Source: a virus. Taken from it: a DNA stretch of 19,836 bases. Below the pieces are notes generated by a model. The model ran no database searches. It was not told the DNA's origin and saw nothing but the letters and a program-made list of their open reading frames with translations. Positions 1 to 4,628 of this stretch are shown one piece after another. Made by a program: the position numbers and the translations under genes. Every line of letters begins with the position of its first letter. The stretch's first letter is position 1. Location of the stretch: UHGV virus genome UHGV-0279810. The stretch is one strand, 5' to 3'.

Positions 1-150
1 CGAGGCAATTTGCGTAGTTCACGGTAAGCCCCCATTGTCGGCAGGCCAACCGTTTTACATTGCGGAATGCGCCACGTTGACGCCCATGCGGTAACAGCCG
101 CGGCAGTGTCTTTCAGCGGTCTGCCGGTACCGTTATCGAGCTGACCATCC
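1..150 (-). pseudogene. Inverted, diverged partial copy of a P2-type gene A segment (homologous to + strand 413-562); runs off the left window edge
   Basis: Reverse complement of 1-150 aligns base-for-base with 413-562 with about 9 mismatches, mostly at third codon positions. In the gene A reading frame on the + strand there is a TGA at 78-80, so this stretch is not a continuation of the downstream A ORF. Confidence 0.6.
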
Positions 151-1384: not shown

Positions 1385-1413
1385 TTGTTTATTTAATATA
1401 AAAAAATATTATA
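1385..1413 (+). promoter_or_regulatory. Candidate sigma70 promoter for the cargo operon (TTGTTT -N16- TATTAT)
   Basis: TTGTTT at 1385-1390 and TATTAT at 1407-1412 in the AT-rich stretch after the A stop. Many alternative AT-rich hexamers exist nearby, so this is weak. Confidence 0.2.
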
Positions 1414-1449
1414 TATAGGGAGATCAAATACAACGGTTTACTTGTTATG

Positions 1450-1726
1450 ATGCAAACATTGGTTAGTTAGTGAGATACATCGCCATCAATTGGGTAACTT
1501 TACCCGTGGAAAGTTAACGCTTTCTAACATTTACCCCGCGCAACGCCCCTGCCAGCGACAAGAGTCACAGGATCAGGCGGTATGGCGTATGGGTATTCGA
1601 ACCCTTTGGGCGACCAAGGGTTCGTGGAGCAGGGGGCTAGTGCTGTTCAATCTCATCCTTATGAGGGCGAACCATAGTGTTGGAGCAGACATATCGTTTG
1701 CACACTATGGGCATAAGGAGCAAATC
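1450..1726 (+). ncRNA. Candidate structured non-coding RNA / regulatory leader upstream of the HTH-RT module (possible retron msr-msd); boundaries not resolved
   Basis: No ribosome-binding site for the ORF-track reading frame. Hairpins read by eye: CGAACCCTT-N9-AAGGGTTCG (1598-1624) and CCATAGTGT-N21-ACACTATGG (1672-1710). Near-palindrome GGGTAA-CT-TTACCC (1492-1505) and a second TTTACCC at 1530-1536. A retron RT gene normally has its ncRNA directly upstream. Confidence 0.25.
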
Positions 1727-1882
1727 ATGAAGAATGATAAATTAACCAACGAACAGCAGGCGCAGAACAAGTCAAACCTGAAAAAGTGGGCTGGTTATGT
1801 TTGGAAATTAATCAAATGGGGTATTAGACTGTTTGATTTAGCCACTCGAGCACTGGACTACTTTGAAGGGGGTGATGAGTAA
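1727..1882 (+). CDS. Small hypothetical protein (51 aa), first gene of the cargo operon
   Basis: ATG at 1727 preceded by AAGGAG (1715-1720) at good spacing. It is the only part of ORF 1490-1882 with a ribosome-binding site. Product MKNDKLTNEQQAQNKSNLKKWAGYVWKLIKWGIRLFDLATRALDYFEGGDE has a Trp-rich amphipathic segment. Confidence 0.45.
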   Translation: MKNDKLTNEQQAQNKSNLKKWAGYVWKLIKWGIRLFDLATRALDYFEGGDE

Positions 1883-1906
1883 TGCGTCCTCCCTAGTTTC
1901 AATAGC

Positions 1907-2239
1907 ATGGAGTTGCCTATGTTACACAGAGCCCTTCGTTTAATAAGGCAATACCATAAAGAGTCATTGGTTGATTTATCAACATCTTTAGGTATTCCAA
2001 AAGAAAAAATAGTAGAACTCGAAAGTGGGGTTTGGTCGCCTACAATTGATGTTTTACAGCGTTACGCCTCCCATTTCGATATGCCGGTATCTTCTTTAGT
2101 ATTTTTTTCAGAATCGTTAGGTACGCAGGGGCGTTTATCTAAGCGTTTCCGTTTAAATTTAGCTGGTAAAGTATTAGATGTTATTGAGTGGGCGAATAAG
2201 AAAAATGAAAAGACGAATAAAACTCAAAATTTCCACTAA
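1907..2239 (+). CDS. XRE-family helix-turn-helix DNA-binding protein (about 106-110 aa)
   Basis: Translation contains a classic XRE HTH (SLVDLSTSLGIPKEKIVELESG...SPTIDVLQRYASHF). Alternative start ATG at 1919 has a better GGAG upstream. Its 3' end abuts or overlaps the RT gene. Confidence 0.7.
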   Translation: MELPMLHRALRLIRQYHKESLVDLSTSLGIPKEKIVELESGVWSPTIDVLQRYASHFDMPVSSLVFFSESLGTQGRLSKRFRLNLAGKVLDVIEWANKKNEKTNKTQNFH

Positions 2240-3155
2240 AAATAAATCTTACGATATAATTGATTCGCCGTTTTATAAAATGAGAAGTAAAAGGAAATTG
2301 GCTTCTTTATTGGGGGTTGATGTAGGGGATTTATCAACCTTAAAAAAAGATGAAGGCAATTATTCTATTTTTGAACAGTTATCTAAAAACGGAAAGCCAC
2401 GTAAGATACAAAAACCATTAGAAAAATTAGATGTGGTGCATACTCGTATTGCAAGTCTGCTATCGCGAATTACCTTGCCAGATTATCTACATTCTGGAAA
2501 GAAGGGATGTTCTAATGTTACTAATGCTAAAATCCACCTTAATAATGAAAGGTTGATGACAACCGACATCAGGGCTTTTTTTCCATCAACTACTAGAGAA
2601 ATGATATTTTCATTCTTTTTTTCTGTTATGAAGATGTCATCTGATGTTGCGGATGTATTATCGTATATATGTACTTGCTATGGGCGTTTGCCTACAGGTA
2701 GCAGGATTAGTATGCCTCTTGCATATTTTGCAAATTCAAGAATGTTCGGAGAAATACACCAACTTTGTAATAAACTACACGTAAATATGTCTGTTTATGT
2801 TGATGATCTAACTTTTTCAGGACAAAACGTTAATAGACTATTTTGTTCAGTGATTCGCAAAATAATAAATAAGCATGGTCATGTGATGCATGCGGATAAA
2901 ACAAAAATTTATAGTAGAGAAAAGCCTAAGTTGGTAACAGGTGTTATTGTTTTGGGCGGTTCTTTAAAAGTCAGGAATAAGCAGCATCTTTTAATGTCTC
3001 AAGAAATTGAATATTGGAAAATGATAAAGGATGCAGCGTGTGCAAGAGAAACTCATACTGCCAAAAAGTTATTTGGACGATTGCATTCTATGGGGGTAAT
3101 TGAACAACGTTATAGATCAAAGGTGCTTACATTAAAAGCAAGTACTGCACTTTAA
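2178..3155 (+). CDS. Retron-type reverse transcriptase (about 291-325 aa depending on start)
   Basis: RT motifs in the translation: DIRAFFPS (motif 4-like), SVYVDDLTFSG (catalytic YxDD), NAKIH (retron NAxxH motif) and KLVTGVIVLGG (retron VTG motif). Size matches retron RTs of about 300-320 aa. Possible starts at 2178, 2205 or 2280. Confidence 0.85.
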   Translation: MLLSGRIRKMKRRIKLKISTKNKSYDIIDSPFYKMRSKRKLASLLGVDVGDLSTLKKDEGNYSIFEQLSKNGKPRKIQKPLEKLDVVHTRIASLLSRITLPDYLHSGKKGCSNVTNAKIHLNNERLMTTDIRAFFPSTTREMIFSFFFSVMKMSSDVADVLSYICTCYGRLPTGSRISMPLAYFANSRMFGEIHQLCNKLHVNMSVYVDDLTFSGQNVNRLFCSVIRKIINKHGHVMHADKTKIYSREKPKLVTGVIVLGGSLKVRNKQHLLMSQEIEYWKMIKDAACARETHTAKKLFGRLHSMGVIEQRYRSKVLTLKASTAL

Positions 3156-3206
3156 TACAGGTTCCTGTAAGTGATTATATTGTTCTTAAGATACTTACTG
3201 ATGTTA

Positions 3207-3236
3207 TTTCCCCGTAGCCTTAATTTCTGCGGGGAA
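3207..3236. terminator. Hairpin between convergent RT and FRG genes (possible bidirectional terminator)
   Basis: TTTCCCCGTAG (3207-3217) pairs with CTGCGGGGAA (3227-3236) around a 9-nt loop; a T-rich run follows on the + strand only. Confidence 0.3.
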
Positions 3237-3263
3237 GTATGGAGATATTTTGGTTATGGAATG

Positions 3264-4628
3264 CTAATTTTTTAATGTGTATTTTTCTGTGATTAGTTTC
3301 ATTGTTCTTTCCAATCCTAAATATACAGTGGCATCAGTAATATTGAGCACGGCAAGTTCTTTTAAAATTTTCTTTTTGTCTCTGATGTTTATTTTTTCTG
3401 TCTTAAAGTTGTATGGTGAATTATCTGCCTGATCGTTGGATATCTCAGGAAAAACGGCGTTATTACCGAATAATAAAAAGGCACCGGATTGAGATGATAT
3501 TCTTTCATTATTTATCCTGCTTTTTACAAAAATTATCTTTTCCAAATCATCTGGATTTATTATGCTTTGAAAATATGGTTTTTCATGCTTTATGGATTCT
3601 AAGAGTTTAAGGCAAGCATGAGAGTTGTTAAAATCATTATTTCTTTCTTCGAAAGAAAGCTTGTCTTTCATGTCTTTTGATAGCATGCATAAATTAGATA
3701 TGCAACTGACAGTGTCGGAATCGAAAAATTTAATGTTCTCTCTGTGTGTTTTAAATATTATTACTTGACCATCGATATCGTTTTTGTCGGAATTTATACT
3801 ACTGCATGCAAAATAAAGTGCAATTAATGGATTTGATGTGATGTCAAGTAAGCGAGTAGGTATGCCATAATGTTGCATTCTTACAAGTTTATCAAGCATT
3901 GATGTATCATCAATGAATTCTGAGGGTCTTGCGCTCAATGCTTCTTTAACAAGGTTGATTTCATTATGTAGAAATTTATAGTTCCCATTTTCATATTTTC
4001 TGAAAAGAGATGGTGCAAGTTCATAAGATGAATCTGAATGACCCCTGTAAAAAATCTCCTCATCCATATCTGCTGTTATATGGAGAACTTTTTCAATAAA
4101 TTCTTGTAAACTATTTACGGTTAATAATGTGCTATCTTCGTCTGGGAGAGGCGCTGGACTGCTATCCACTTGTGCATTTTGGTTAATACCAAATGTCTTA
4201 AGGATATCATCTATATTTTTGTCTTTTATGGCCCAGTGTGTTCTTTTAAGGCCATAAGTTCCGAGTTCTAAACTGCTTTCAACACTTTTGGCGTCTGATA
4301 TTTTGATTTCATTGTGTGTATGGGTGATTGCAAATTGGAAGTTGATTTCTTTTCCCTTAATGTGAATATTTGAAATTCTTCCAATTCGTATGTCGACATA
4401 ATAAGGTTTTGCTCCCTCTATTTGATAAGCTTCACTCATGAATATTGTTGGGAGTTTTTCAAGATAAGATAGTACATTGCTGCTTAATGGGGATAGTTTT
4501 TTGCGAATACCATCGGAGGTGTTTTCAAACATTCGTGATAAAAGAAATGAGAATTCTCCATTATTTTGGCTGAATGGTTTCCAGTGGTCGTAGTGGTCGG
4601 GAAAACCACCCATAATTAAATTAATCAT
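3264..4628 (-). CDS. FRG-domain protein (454 aa), candidate defence protein; N- and C-terminal regions of unknown function
   Basis: Central region carries the FRG-domain signature: FYRGHSDSSYELAPSLFR ... MQHYGIPTRLLDITSNPLIALYFA. AT-rich, lies in the P2 tin/old slot, convergent to the RT operon. Start ATG at 4628 with a weak AGGT ribosome-binding site. Confidence 0.65.
   Translation of the reverse strand: MINLIMGGFPDHYDHWKPFSQNNGEFSFLLSRMFENTSDGIRKKLSPLSSNVLSYLEKLPTIFMSEAYQIEGAKPYYVDIRIGRISNIHIKGKEINFQFAITHTHNEIKISDAKSVESSLELGTYGLKRTHWAIKDKNIDDILKTFGINQNAQVDSSPAPLPDEDSTLLTVNSLQEFIEKVLHITADMDEEIFYRGHSDSSYELAPSLFRKYENGNYKFLHNEINLVKEALSARPSEFIDDTSMLDKLVRMQHYGIPTRLLDITSNPLIALYFACSSINSDKNDIDGQVIIFKTHRENIKFFDSDTVSCISNLCMLSKDMKDKLSFEERNNDFNNSHACLKLLESIKHEKPYFQSIINPDDLEKIIFVKSRINNERISSQSGAFLLFGNNAVFPEISNDQADNSPYNFKTEKINIRDKKKILKELAVLNITDATVYLGLERTMKLITEKYTLKN

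What the first reader, a model, noticed from the sequence alone, without database searches (positions are those of the whole stretch)
1450..1726. Structured non-coding leader upstream of the HTH-RT operon: candidate retron ncRNA and operator-like repeats
About 280 bp upstream of the small ORF has no ribosome-binding site and carries two stable hairpins (1598-1624, 1672-1710), a near-palindrome GGGTAA-CT-TTACCC (1492-1505) and a repeated TTTACCC motif about 30 bp away (1530-1536). A retron RT requires a cognate msr-msd RNA, normally directly upstream of the operon. The palindromic sites could instead be operators for the XRE-type HTH protein. I could not identify a convincing a1/a2 inverted-repeat pair by eye, so the RNA boundaries are unresolved.
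Basis: inference. Interest (0 to 1): 0.5.

Follow-up and report, generated by a model that had tools for sequence, protein, structure and literature searches.

The report
Type VI retron hybrid RNA leader
The structured stretch is the non-coding front part of the RNA of a known kind of bacterial anti-phage system (a Type VI retron, here on an E. coli P2-like prophage): it most likely holds the template for a small single-stranded DNA and a fold that hides the ribosome-binding site of a 51-residue toxin gene, so it is a real element but not a new kind.

Summary
The region folds better than shuffles (z -3.8 and -4.4). The downstream genes score as a Type VI retron (PADLOC HTH_VI 7e-30, RT_VI 1e-105), preceded by a conserved 51-aa small ORF (SP, 1727-1882).

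In 14 close relatives the predicted fold is 97.7% paired. 25 pairs changed on both sides, against 8.9 in shuffles. A covariance model of 1594-1731 also finds Yersinia-type loci outside its seed (E about 1e-7).

The architecture matches the "hybrid RNA" of Retron-Vpa2 and the Retron-Sen3 ncRNA (bioRxiv 2025 and 2026):
- a long hairpin with a hypervariable tip, then hairpin 1598-1624 (the probable msDNA template);
- an 8-bp helix hiding the SP ribosome-binding site and enclosing hairpin 1672-1710;
- inverted repeats flanking SP;
- a direct repeat GGGCGA (1608 and 1665) whose two copies change together across lineages.

The retron-ncRNA reading is right. However, the RNA probably runs from about 1457 to about 1910 and includes the toxin ORF. 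The operator reading is not supported. The priming site stays unresolved. This is a new member of a known kind.

The parts
1443..1451 (+). Candidate extended -10 promoter TGTTATGAT. The predicted RNA 5' end is about 1455-1459.
   Evidence: TG-n-TATGAT is kept in 12 of 14 relatives, while the n position varies freely among T, G, A and C. It is the only match in the window. Distant lineages L029, L037 and L038 carry canonical TTGAC(T/C)-17-TA(C/T)AAT promoters at the equivalent place, just upstream of the homologous leader (read from the sequences). This is inference; no transcript data are available.
1457..1490 (+). [quoted passage not shown]
   Evidence: 20 of 34 columns are invariant. The 1459-1465/1743-1749 helix is kept in all 14 relatives, with a compensatory change in L005. 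The CCAU/AUGG helix has 2 of 4 pairs changed on both sides (helix 3).
1491..1506 (+). SL-A, a short stem-loop (msr-like).
   Evidence: 100% of cells are paired, and 3 of 6 pairs changed on both sides. The loop length varies from 4 to 6 nt (helix 4). Folded alone, z is -3.2.
1507..1526 (+). SL-B, a short stem-loop UGGAAAGU-UAAC-GCUUUCUA (msr-like).
   Evidence: 8 pairs, 98% of cells paired, one compensatory pair (helix 5). Folded alone, z is -5.8.
1533..1594 (+). SL-C, a long hairpin with a conserved base and a hypervariable, length-variable tip. It is the probable main msd (reverse-transcription template) stem-loop.
   Evidence: The base helices are conserved (helices 6-8). The tip at 1548-1578 has only 48% majority identity and carries indels, giving variants of 57-82 nt. 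Every variant still folds as a single hairpin. It corresponds to the 63-nt msd stem-loop of Retron-Vpa2 and to the variable SL3 of Retron-Sen3 (papers read).
1598..1624 (+). Its loop carries direct-repeat copy 1, GGGCGA at 1608-1613. It is the probable template of the 5'-terminal stem-loop of the msDNA.
   Evidence: 6 of 9 pairs changed on both sides across 18 sequences, with 100% of cells paired (helix 1). The repeat is located.
1625..1636 (+). IR1 (UGGAGCAGGGGG), which pairs with IR2 at 1889-1901. This is the a1/a2-like long-range closure.
   Evidence: 12 pairs, 99.4% of cells paired, with one-sided changes only (helix 10). The equivalent pairing is present in L029, L007 and L037 with z at or below -3, but it is not better than shuffles in the window itself (z -0.7).
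1641..1648 (+). UGCUGUUC, which pairs with GAACAGCA at 1751-1758 inside the SP ORF. This helix closes the arm holding the ribosome-binding site and the start codon.
   Evidence: Perfect 8 bp (I18). Both strands are invariant in 14 relatives, so there is no covariation evidence (helix 11).
1656..1663 (+). Anti-Shine-Dalgarno strand UCCUUAUG.
   Evidence: It pairs perfectly with CAUAAGGA at 1712-1719 (I19). The riboregulator 1654-1721 folds with this closing helix, z -4.6. The pairing is kept with different sequences in L029, L007, L037, L039, L044 and L045. 2 of 8 pairs changed on both sides in A5 (helix 2).
1665..1670 (+). Direct-repeat copy 2 (GGGCGA), lying in the single-stranded internal loop between the anti-SD strand and hairpin 2.
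   Evidence: These are the only two GGGCGA copies in 1400-1950, 57 nt apart. In other lineages both copies change together: GAGGCGA, UGGCGAC, GGCGAAA, GCGGCAC, CCGAGAGGG, CCGAAAGGA.
1672..1710 (+).
   Evidence: 13 of 14 pairs changed on both sides, and 99-100% of cells are paired (helices 3 and 4). See, helices 13 and 14.
1712..1720 (+). Shine-Dalgarno strand of the SP ORF (AAGGAG at 1715-1720), sequestered by 1656-1663.
1727..1882 (+). SP, a 51-aa small ORF with a basic N-terminal half and a hydrophobic C-terminal half. It is the presumed toxic effector and is embedded in the folded RNA.
   Evidence: An intact small ORF lies at the same place in every locus with enough upstream sequence (51 codons in the close relatives, 47-66 in distant lineages). 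It matches phrog_15287 at 3e-39 and is annotated as WP_001754918.1. Toxicity is taken from Vpa2 and Sen3 (papers read) and was not tested here.
1883..1901 (+). Near-invariant spacer between SP and HTH. UGCGUC at 1883-1888 pairs with GGCGCA at 1759-1764. IR2 (CUCCCUAGUUUCA, 1889-1901) pairs with IR1.
   Evidence: 17 of 31 spacer columns are invariant although the spacer is non-coding. Helix 17 has one compensatory pair, GC to AU in 2 sequences.
1919..2239 (+). HTH protein of the Type VI retron. The RefSeq start is the ATG at 1919, with GGAG at 1909-1912 as ribosome-binding site.
   Evidence: PADLOC HTH_VI 7.2e-30. The RefSeq start is shown.
2205..3155 (+). Retron reverse transcriptase, 316 aa, with YVDD at 2796-2807. 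It overlaps the HTH gene by 35 nt.
   Evidence: PADLOC RT_VI 1.1e-105, against 5e-45 for the next retron type. Pfam RVT_1.

Best explanation
Window 1450-1726 is the non-coding 5' domain of the hybrid RNA (hyRNA) of a Type VI retron carried in the variable region next to the replication gene (gpA) of an E. coli P2-like prophage.

Layout, most likely:
1. One transcript starts at about 1457 from an extended -10 promoter at 1443-1451.
2. It runs through two short msr-like stem-loops, SL-A (1491-1506) and SL-B (1507-1526).
3. Next comes the reverse-transcription template: the long variable hairpin SL-C (1533-1594) plus hairpin 1 (1598-1624).
4. A riboregulator follows, in which UCCUUAUG (1656-1663) pairs with the Shine-Dalgarno strand (1712-1719) around hairpin 2 (1672-1710).
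5. Then come the 51-codon toxin ORF SP (1727-1882) and a 3' spacer whose IR2 (1889-1901) folds back on IR1 (1625-1636).

Mechanism, by homology with Retron-Vpa2:
- The RT and the HTH protein bind this RNA.
- In uninfected cells little cDNA accumulates and SP is not translated.
- On infection (phage recombination proteins, or RecBCD inhibition) an msDNA of about 90 nt copied from 1533-1624 accumulates.
- The loop of its 5' hairpin (GTCGCCC) is complementary to the exposed GGGCGA(A) at 1665-1671, next to the anti-SD strand. Hybridisation there would open the helix and allow SP translation, arresting the infected cell.

Status of each step:
- Shown here: the gene identities, the conserved and covarying RNA structure, the RBS sequestration, and the co-varying direct repeat.
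- Inferred from the two preprints: the transcript boundaries, msDNA synthesis and its extent, SP toxicity, and the trigger.
- I put about 0.85 on 'retron hyRNA 5' domain'. Given that, I put about 0.5 on the Vpa2-type msDNA-dependent translational switch.
For: Gene identity:
- PADLOC HTH_VI 7e-30 and RT_VI 1e-105.
- The SP-HTH-RT order is kept in every related locus with enough upstream sequence.

The region is non-coding:
- 11 of 14 relatives have in-frame stops upstream of the SP ATG, and lengths differ by non-multiples of 3.

Structure:
- Folding z -3.8 and -4.4.
- The alifold consensus over 14 relatives has 97.7% of cells paired. 25 pairs changed on both sides, against 8.9 +/- 2.0 in shuffles (0 of 500) and 4-7 in slid controls.
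- The covariance model R1 (1594-1731) finds Yersinia-type loci outside its seed at E about 1e-7, at the correct place. In the resulting 18-sequence alignment 21 of 31 pairs changed on both sides, against 8.4 +/- 1.9.
- The SL-C tip is hypervariable, yet it always folds as one hairpin.
- The stretch 1595-1671 is more conserved (97-98% majority identity) than the SP coding sequence (87%).

Shared architecture:
- The same module order is found in 9 lineages down to about 34% RT identity: hairpin with repeat copy 1, IR1, anti-SD, repeat copy 2, hairpin 2, SD, SP, IR2.
- Both copies of the direct repeat change together across those lineages.
- The predicted 92-nt msDNA folds as two hairpins, z -3.6.

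Cassette boundaries:
- Homology with the Klebsiella phage copy starts exactly at window 1441 and ends at 3136.
- The cassette, including its leader, occurs in three different genomic contexts.

Literature:
- The hyRNA with three arms, a sequestered RBS, a 63+23-nt msDNA and 7-nt direct repeats is described in bioRxiv 10.1101/2025.10.22.683967.
- A conserved ncRNA of about 280 nt upstream of SP, IR1-IR2 flanking SP, and a 5-bp stem-loop are described in bioRxiv 10.64898/2026.04.27.721009.
Against: - There are no transcript, msDNA or toxicity data for this locus.
- No Rfam family matches, even at E up to 10.
- The key helices anti-SD/SD, 1641-1648/1751-1758 and IR1/IR2 are invariant or change on one side only within the close family. 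Their support comes from more distant lineages. The alignment used for that (A5) was fitted to the model structure.
- The IR1/IR2 duplex in the window is no better than shuffles (z -0.7).
- Many alternative pairings among the conserved segments are possible.
- No branching or priming G and no canonical a1/a2 pair could be assigned.
- The two characterised Type VI retrons differ in logic. In Vpa2 translation depends on msDNA. In Sen3 ssDNA and SP are constitutive, with post-translational control. So the regulatory mode of this one cannot be read from sequence.
- A direct repeat could equally mean two binding sites for one protein.
Confidence: 0.8

Rival explanations
1. The RNA element is the same, but the logic is that of Retron-Sen3. 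The ncRNA templates ssDNA constitutively, SP is made constitutively and is neutralised by the HTH protein as an antitoxin, and activation by RecBCD inhibition is post-translational. The folded leader would then serve mainly as RT template and scaffold, not as a translational switch.
For: - Retron-Sen3, a Type VI retron of Enterobacterales, works this way (bioRxiv 10.64898/2026.04.27.721009).
- The window shares Sen3-like features: a short stem-loop upstream of the template (SL-A), IR1-IR2 flanking SP, a variable long stem-loop, and possible pairing with the HTH ribosome-binding-site zone at 1483-1486/1907-1910.
Against: - The window's SP is 51 aa, like the 55-aa Vpa2 SP. It lacks the N-terminal extension of about 25 residues seen in the 79-aa Sen3-type (cl2075) SPs.
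- The conserved RBS-sequestering helix and the co-varying direct repeats are the features tied to the Vpa2 translational model.
- The E. coli Type VI retron tested so far (Retron-Eco12) gave no basal msDNA, like Vpa2.
Confidence: 0.25
2. The palindrome at 1492-1505 and the TTTACCC repeat are DNA operators for the XRE-type HTH protein, and the region is a transcriptional control region.
For: The HTH protein belongs to the Cro/C1-like class (Pfam HTH_3, weak match; PADLOC HTH_VI). A near-perfect palindrome is present.
Against: - The palindrome lies about 40-50 nt downstream of the best promoter candidate, inside the probable transcript.
- Relatives change both arms in a compensatory way, including G-U pairs that break DNA symmetry (GGGUA/UACCC, GGGCA/UGUCC, GAGUU/AACUC). 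They also vary the spacer from 4 to 6 nt.
- The first TTTACCC copy is not conserved as sequence. The two copies belong to two different RNA stems.
- In Vpa2 the HTH protein co-purifies with the RT and the hyRNA.
Confidence: 0.05
3. The region is protein-coding: the 130-aa TTG ORF at 1490-1882, annotated as YP_009877207.1 in Peduovirus P22H1.
For: The ORF is open in the window and is annotated in NC_049386.1. A 97-position PHROG profile (phrog_5826) matches SP only over its C-terminal 51 positions, so it may include longer calls.
Against: - 11 of 14 relatives have in-frame stops 21-219 nt upstream of the SP ATG.
- Lengths differ by non-multiples of 3.
- The variable segment has indels of about 17-20 nt.
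- Substitutions follow base pairing, not codons.
- A strong AAGGAG lies 6 nt before the ATG at 1727.
- RefSeq annotates only the 51-aa ORF.
Confidence: 0.02

Closest known systems
Retron-Vpa2 hybrid RNA (hyRNA) and Retron-Eco12, Type VI retrons (Zhang et al., bioRxiv 10.1101/2025.10.22.683967)
   Same: - The operon order is structured leader, small toxic ORF (SP), HTH, RT.
- The fold has three arms: an msr-msd-like arm, an arm with the RBS and start codon, and an arm with the rest of SP.
- The 3' end folds back through inverted repeats.
- The SD is sequestered.
- A long template stem-loop (63 nt in Vpa2, 62 nt here) is followed on its 3' side by a short hairpin (23 nt in Vpa2, 27 nt here).
- A short direct repeat sits in the loop of that hairpin and in a loop of the riboregulator.
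- The SP is about 50-55 aa with a hydrophobic C-terminal half.
   Different: - The host and sequence differ. RT identity to the loci that look most Vpa2-like is only about 35-45%.
- The exact repeat here is 6 nt (GGGCGA) rather than 7 nt.
- Nothing has been measured for this locus.
- Whether this locus is Retron-Eco12 itself could not be checked, because that sequence is not in the text or supplements held.
Retron-Sen3 and the cl2075-lineage ncRNA (Garcia-Rodriguez et al., bioRxiv 10.64898/2026.04.27.721009)
   Same: - A conserved ncRNA lies within about 280 nt upstream of SP.
- A short conserved stem-loop shows compensatory changes and a variable loop.
- A long internal stem-loop has a non-conserved central segment.
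- The SP RBS is sequestered.
- IR1 and IR2 flank SP, with IR2 just after the stop codon.
[quoted passage not shown]
   Different: - Sen3-type SPs have 79 aa with an N-terminal extension. This SP has 51 aa.
- Sen3 makes ssDNA constitutively and controls SP post-translationally.
- In Sen3 the RBS pairs with the 5' inverted repeat of the ncRNA. Here it pairs with a strand lying 3' of the template (1656-1663).
Canonical retron msr-msd RNAs (for example Retron-Eco1/Ec86; Rfam msr family)
   Same: It lies directly upstream of the retron genes. It has short RT-binding-type stem-loops followed by a long template hairpin whose tip is variable.
   Different: - No terminal a1/a2 pair with a 5' a1 and an adjacent branching G could be assigned.
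- There is no Rfam match.
- The RNA includes an effector coding sequence.
- In the characterised relative Vpa2, msDNA acts as an activator and not as an antitoxin.

Membership tests
Type VI retron (Mestre et al. 2020 classification; PADLOC Retron VI) | The RT belongs to the Type VI retron clade. | tested here: met
   RT_VI profile 1.1e-105 over nearly its full length (profile positions 1-278 of 279). The next best is RT_III-A at 5e-45. YVDD lies at 2796-2807.
Type VI retron (Mestre et al. 2020 classification; PADLOC Retron VI) | A Cro/C1-type HTH gene lies immediately upstream of, or overlapping, the RT gene. | tested here: met
   HTH_VI 7.2e-30. The HTH gene at 1919-2239 overlaps the RT gene at 2205-3155 by 35 nt.
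Type VI retron (Mestre et al. 2020 classification; PADLOC Retron VI) | A small accessory ORF (SP) lies upstream of the HTH gene. | tested here: met
   The 51-aa ORF at 1727-1882 is conserved in all related loci with enough upstream sequence. It matches phrog_15287 at 3e-39. Its SP cluster number could not be assigned.
Type VI retron (Mestre et al. 2020 classification; PADLOC Retron VI) | RT-dependent ssDNA (msDNA) is produced, and the system defends against phage. | not testable with these tools
   This needs PAGE or Spacer-seq and plaque assays.
Type VI hyRNA (Zhang et al. 2025) | A three-arm fold in which inverted repeats link the arms, and the 3' end anneals back onto the first arm. | tested here: met
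   The alifold consensus has IR1/IR2 (1625-1636/1889-1901), 1641-1648/1751-1758 and 1759-1764/1883-1888 meeting at one junction. Whole-structure covariation is 25 pairs against 8.9 in shuffles.
Type VI hyRNA (Zhang et al. 2025) | The SP ribosome-binding site and start codon are sequestered in stems. | tested here: met
   The SD is sequestered by a perfect 8-bp helix, 1656-1663/1712-1719. This is kept with other sequences in 8 further lineages. The start-codon hairpin (1724-1738) is only 5 weak pairs (helices 15-16), so that half is inconclusive.
Type VI hyRNA (Zhang et al. 2025) | A short direct repeat sits in a loop of the msd and in a loop of the riboregulator. | tested here: met
   GGGCGA lies at 1608-1613 in the hairpin 1 loop and at 1665-1670 in the internal loop. 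Both copies co-vary across lineages.
Type VI hyRNA (Zhang et al. 2025) | A single abundant transcript contains both the template and the SP coding sequence. | not testable with these tools
   This needs RNA-seq. Only promoter candidates and conservation boundaries are available.
Canonical retron msr-msd | Terminal a1/a2 inverted repeats with a branching G directly 3' of a1. | tested here: inconclusive
   There are two candidates, and neither has compensatory support within the close family. One is 1457-1464/1635-1642. The other is IR1/IR2, which would be circularly permuted. No conserved G could be singled out.
Canonical retron msr-msd | A match to a curated retron RNA family. | tested here: not met
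   There are no Rfam 15 hits at gathering score. At E up to 10, only two chance-level hits appear, to unrelated families.
cl2075 (Retron-Sen3) lineage of Type VI | An SP of about 79 aa with an N-terminal extension of about 25 residues. | tested here: not met
   The SP here is 51 aa.

The most novel reading that the evidence does not exclude
IR1/IR2 may be a circularly permuted a1/a2 priming duplex. The template (1533-1624) lies directly 5' of IR1, so the priming nucleotide would have to sit just 3' of IR2, at about 1902-1906, which is downstream of the toxin ORF. cDNA synthesis would then be primed from the 3' end of the toxin mRNA and would physically couple msDNA to the message it de-represses. 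A lesser variant of this reading is that the hypervariable tip of SL-C is a diversifying specificity determinant for what the retron senses.
Probability: 0.1. Interest if true: 0.6.

Novelty: new member of a known kind. Interest (0 to 1): 0.3.

Why it matters
**Practical value**
- The leader of this common E. coli prophage cassette is unannotated, or is mis-annotated as a 130-aa protein. The cassette occurs in 100 of 5426 complete genomes.
- No Rfam family covers it.
- A coordinate-level map helps annotation and helps anyone engineering or testing E. coli Type VI retrons. The map covers the promoter candidate, the template, the riboregulator, the toxin ORF and the inverted repeats.

**Scientific value**
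- The one modestly useful result is that the two copies of the short direct repeat change together across at least seven lineages.
- This is natural-variation support for a functional link between the loop of the msDNA 5' hairpin and the riboregulator loop. That link is the hypothesis put forward for Retron-Vpa2.
- It points directly to compensatory-mutation experiments.

It does not reveal a new kind of system.

Tried and rejected
- **Rfam.** The scan at gathering score gave nothing. The scan at E up to 10 over 1380-1960 gave only two chance-level hits, mir-1282 and PinT.
- **Genome-contig scan.** Relatives were taken instead from E. coli genomes, phage records, IMG/VR and a metagenome motif scan.
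- **Sigma-70 consensus scan.** It found no promoter in 1250-1460, because the candidates lack a -35 box. The extended -10 was inferred from conservation instead.
- **Canonical a1/a2 search.** 1457-1464/1635-1642 and 1480-1484/1666-1670 are possible. They carry only wobble-compatible one-sided changes, so neither is accepted.
- **IR1/IR2 significance in the window alone.** It is not better than shuffles. The pairing is kept only as probable, on cross-lineage grounds.
- **TTTACCC as an operator repeat.** Rejected.
- **UGGAGCAG repeat at 1625 and 1681.** It is present in only part of the family, so it is not treated as functional.
- **CGAACC repeat at 1598 and 1668.** It is lost in L004 and L005, so it is not treated as functional.
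- **The 130-aa ORF.** Rejected.
- **3156-3263 as the ncRNA site.** Rejected, because it lies outside the conserved cassette.
- **Identity with Retron-Eco12.** This could not be tested, because no sequence or accession is in the held text or supplements.
Full report
**1. Context**

The window is an E. coli P2-like prophage. The segment 1311-3263 is 100% identical to Peduovirus P22H1 and to many E. coli chromosomes, and 100 of 5426 complete genomes carry a copy.

The finding lies in this gene order:
- the replication endonuclease gene gpA, ending at 1310 (Pfam Phage_GPA);
- an AT-rich stretch;
- the region in question;
- a 51-codon ORF at 1727-1882;
- an HTH gene at 1919-2239 (RefSeq start);
- a 316-aa reverse transcriptase gene at 2205-3155;
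- a convergent FRG-domain gene at 3264-4628.

PADLOC profiles identify the pair as a Type VI retron. HTH_VI scores 7e-30. RT_VI scores 1e-105, against 5e-45 for the next retron type.

**2. The observation**

- Hairpins: 1598-1606/1616-1624 and 1672-1680/1702-1710.
- Palindrome: 1492-1505.
- TTTACCC: 1499-1505 and 1530-1536.

The region folds better than dinucleotide shuffles. For 1441-1730, z is -3.84 with 0 of 200 shuffles as good. For 1441-1925, z is -4.43 with 0 of 100.

The claim that there is no ribosome-binding site needs a correction. AAGGAG at 1715-1720 sits 6 nt before the ATG at 1727, and it is base-paired with 1656-1663.

**3. The region is non-coding**

The window has an open 130-aa TTG ORF at 1490-1882, and the phage record annotates it. 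It is not a gene, for three reasons.
- In 11 of 14 relatives the SP frame has a stop 21-219 nt upstream of the ATG.
- Lengths differ by non-multiples of 3, and one segment carries indels of about 17-20 nt.
- Substitutions follow base pairing, not codons.

**4. Conservation and structure in relatives**

I collected SP-HTH-RT loci from four sources:
- E. coli genomes;
- phage records (Klebsiella, Yersinia);
- IMG/VR;
- a metagenome motif scan.

Homology with the Klebsiella phage copy starts at window 1441 and ends at 3136, so the leader travels with the genes. The cassette occurs in three contexts:
- next to gpA;
- between tail genes of a Yersinia phage;
- in the E. coli C5 chromosome near yeiP.

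Over 14 non-identical close relatives the conservation is patchy in a telling way.

| Segment | Majority identity |
|---|---|
| 1595-1671 (non-coding core) | 97-98% |
| SP coding sequence | 87% |
| 1548-1578 (tip of SL-C) | 48% |

The core is therefore more conserved than the SP coding sequence. The tip of SL-C also varies in length.

The RNAalifold consensus is 97.7% paired. 25 pairs changed on both sides, against 8.9 +/- 2.0 in column shuffles (0 of 500) and 4-7 in slid controls.

A covariance model built on 1594-1731 found the Yersinia-type loci at E about 1e-7, exactly upstream of their SP start codons. These loci have 45% RT identity and were not in the seed. In the resulting 18-sequence alignment, pairs changed on both sides as follows:
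- overall, 21 of 31 (shuffles 8.4 +/- 1.9; slid controls 2-4);
- hairpin 1, 6 of 9;
- hairpin 2, 13 of 14;
- the anti-SD/SD helix, 2 of 8.

That alignment was fitted to the model, which favours the structure. The size of the effect and the slid controls make an artefact unlikely.

**5. Anatomy (window coordinates)**

- **Promoter candidate.** The extended -10 TGTTATGAT lies at 1443-1451. TG and TATGAT are conserved, while the middle base varies among all four nucleotides. Distant lineages have canonical -35/-10 promoters at the same place. This predicts a 5' end near 1457.
- **Leader, 1457-1490.** It has candidate long-range pairings to 1743-1749 (compensatory change in L005) and to 1907-1910.
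- **SL-A, 1491-1506.**
- **SL-B, 1507-1526.**
- **SL-C, 1533-1594.** It has a conserved base and a hypervariable tip of 57-82 nt. Every variant folds as one hairpin.
- **SL-D, or hairpin 1, 1598-1624.**
- **IR1, 1625-1636,** pairing with IR2 at 1889-1901.
- **1641-1648,** pairing with 1751-1758.
- **Anti-SD strand, 1656-1663,** pairing with the SD strand at 1712-1719. This helix encloses an 8-nt single-stranded loop (AGGGCGAA) and hairpin 2 at 1672-1710.
- **SP ORF, 1727-1882.** Its remainder is closed by 1759-1764/1883-1888.

Three helices meet at one junction, which gives a three-arm fold.

**6. The direct repeat**

GGGCGA occurs only twice in 1400-1950. One copy is in the loop of hairpin 1 (1608-1613). 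The other is in the internal loop next to the anti-SD strand (1665-1670).

In other lineages a repeat sits at the same two places, 53-78 nt apart, but with a different sequence that is the same in both copies.

| Locus | Repeat sequence |
|---|---|
| L029 | GAGGCGA |
| L007, L036 | UGGCGAC |
| L037 | GGCGAAA |
| L039, L041 | GCGGCAC |
| L044 | CCGAGAGGG |
| L045 | CCGAAAGGA |

In any single sequence a 7-mer repeat is not rare, occurring in about 20% of shuffles. The same two structural positions in every lineage, changing in step, is not a chance pattern.

**7. Comparison with what is known**

Two preprints describe this kind of RNA.

*Zhang et al. (bioRxiv 10.1101/2025.10.22.683967).* Retron-Vpa2 makes a hybrid RNA of about 470 nt.
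- It holds an msr-msd arm, an arm with the sequestered RBS and start codon of a toxic small protein, and an arm with the rest of that ORF.
- Its 3' end anneals back through inverted repeats.
- The RT, the HTH protein and the hyRNA form a complex.
- msDNA is 63 nt, or 86 nt with an extra 5' stem-loop. It accumulates only on triggering or on loss of HTH, and it is needed for SP translation.
- The authors propose that a conserved 7-nt direct repeat, once reverse-transcribed, pairs with its copy in the riboregulator. [quoted passage not shown]
- They also tested an E. coli Type VI retron, Retron-Eco12, which defended against lambda without detectable basal msDNA.

*Garcia-Rodriguez et al. (bioRxiv 10.64898/2026.04.27.721009).* For Retron-Sen3 and its lineage they describe:
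- a conserved ncRNA within about 280 nt of SP;
- a short conserved stem-loop;
- a long stem-loop with a variable centre;
- RBS sequestration;
- IR1-IR2 flanking SP.

In Sen3, however, ssDNA is constitutive and toxin control is post-translational.

The window matches these architectures feature by feature. With its 51-aa SP and its repeat arrangement it looks closer to the Vpa2 type than to the Sen3 type (79-aa SP).

**8. Mechanism proposed**

By homology, 1533-1624 is the template. The predicted 92-nt cDNA folds into two hairpins, z -3.6. The loop of its 5' hairpin (GTCGCCC) is complementary to the exposed GGGCGA(A) beside the anti-SD strand. Binding there would free the SD and allow translation of the toxic SP during infection.

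- Shown here: the gene family, the conserved and covarying structure, the SD sequestration, and the co-varying repeat.
- Inferred: the transcript ends, cDNA synthesis and its extent, the trigger, and toxicity.

The alternative Sen3-type logic cannot be excluded from sequence. A direct repeat could also be two binding sites for one protein.

**9. What is not resolved**

No canonical a1/a2 pair with a branching G could be assigned. IR1/IR2 would be a permuted version, with the template directly 5' of IR1. In the window its duplex is no better than shuffles (z -0.7), although it reaches z -3 or lower in L029, L007 and L037. Within the close family it shows only one-sided changes. Many alternative pairings exist among the invariant segments.

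Whether this locus is Retron-Eco12 itself could not be checked.

**10. Verdict**

The retron-ncRNA interpretation is right in kind but incomplete in extent. The operator interpretation is not supported.

The element is a new, well-resolved member of a recently described kind, not a new kind. Interest is modest at 0.3. The value lies in the annotation and in natural-variation support for the proposed link between msDNA and the riboregulator.

Noticed in passing
window 1-150 and 413-562: The first 150 bases of the window are a 95% inverted copy of 413-562, which lies inside the gpA replication gene. This looks like a contig-end assembly artefact rather than biology.
   Followed up: partly
window 3264-4628 (-): A 454-aa FRG-domain protein lies convergent to the retron in the same P2 variable region. 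It matches Pfam FRG at 2e-21, the PADLOC candidate defence family PDC-S15 at 7e-98, and phrog_4962. It is probably a second, independent defence gene.
   Followed up: no
window 1490-1882; NC_049386.1 29205-29597: The phage record annotates a 130-aa hypothetical protein (YP_009877207.1) across the ncRNA. Relatives show that this is an over-extended call of the 51-aa SP. The 97-position profile phrog_5826 matches SP only over its last 51 positions, so it may be built on similar over-calls.
   Followed up: yes
L005 2448-4190; L007 1233-2953; window 1441-3159: The leader-SP-HTH-RT cassette moves as a unit. It is found next to gpA in P2-like prophages, between tail genes gpS and gpV in Yersinia phage vB_YenM_56.17, and in the E. 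coli C5 chromosome near yeiP.
   Followed up: partly
window 1548-1578: The tip of the long hairpin SL-C is replaced or resized (57-82 nt) between cassettes whose flanks are 97-98% conserved. Every version still forms a hairpin. The reason for this local diversification is unknown.
   Followed up: partly
window 1407-1415: A second conserved -10-like box (TATTATATA; TGTTATAAG or AGTTATAAT in relatives) lies about 35 nt upstream of the extended -10 candidate. It could be a second promoter or an upstream promoter element.
   Followed up: no
window 1625-1632 and 1681-1688: A second exact direct repeat, TGGAGCAG, links IR1 with the loop of hairpin 2. It is present in only part of the family.
   Followed up: partly
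whole window: TTTACCC occurs 7 times in the window against 2.1 expected, and 0 of 200 shuffles reach 7. Five of the copies lie far from the retron, in phage structural genes. This is unexplained.
   Followed up: no
window 3211-3236: A GC-rich hairpin, CCCCGTAG...CTGCGGGG, lies between the RT gene and the convergent FRG gene. It has no T-run on either strand and lies outside the region conserved with other retron cassettes.
   Followed up: no
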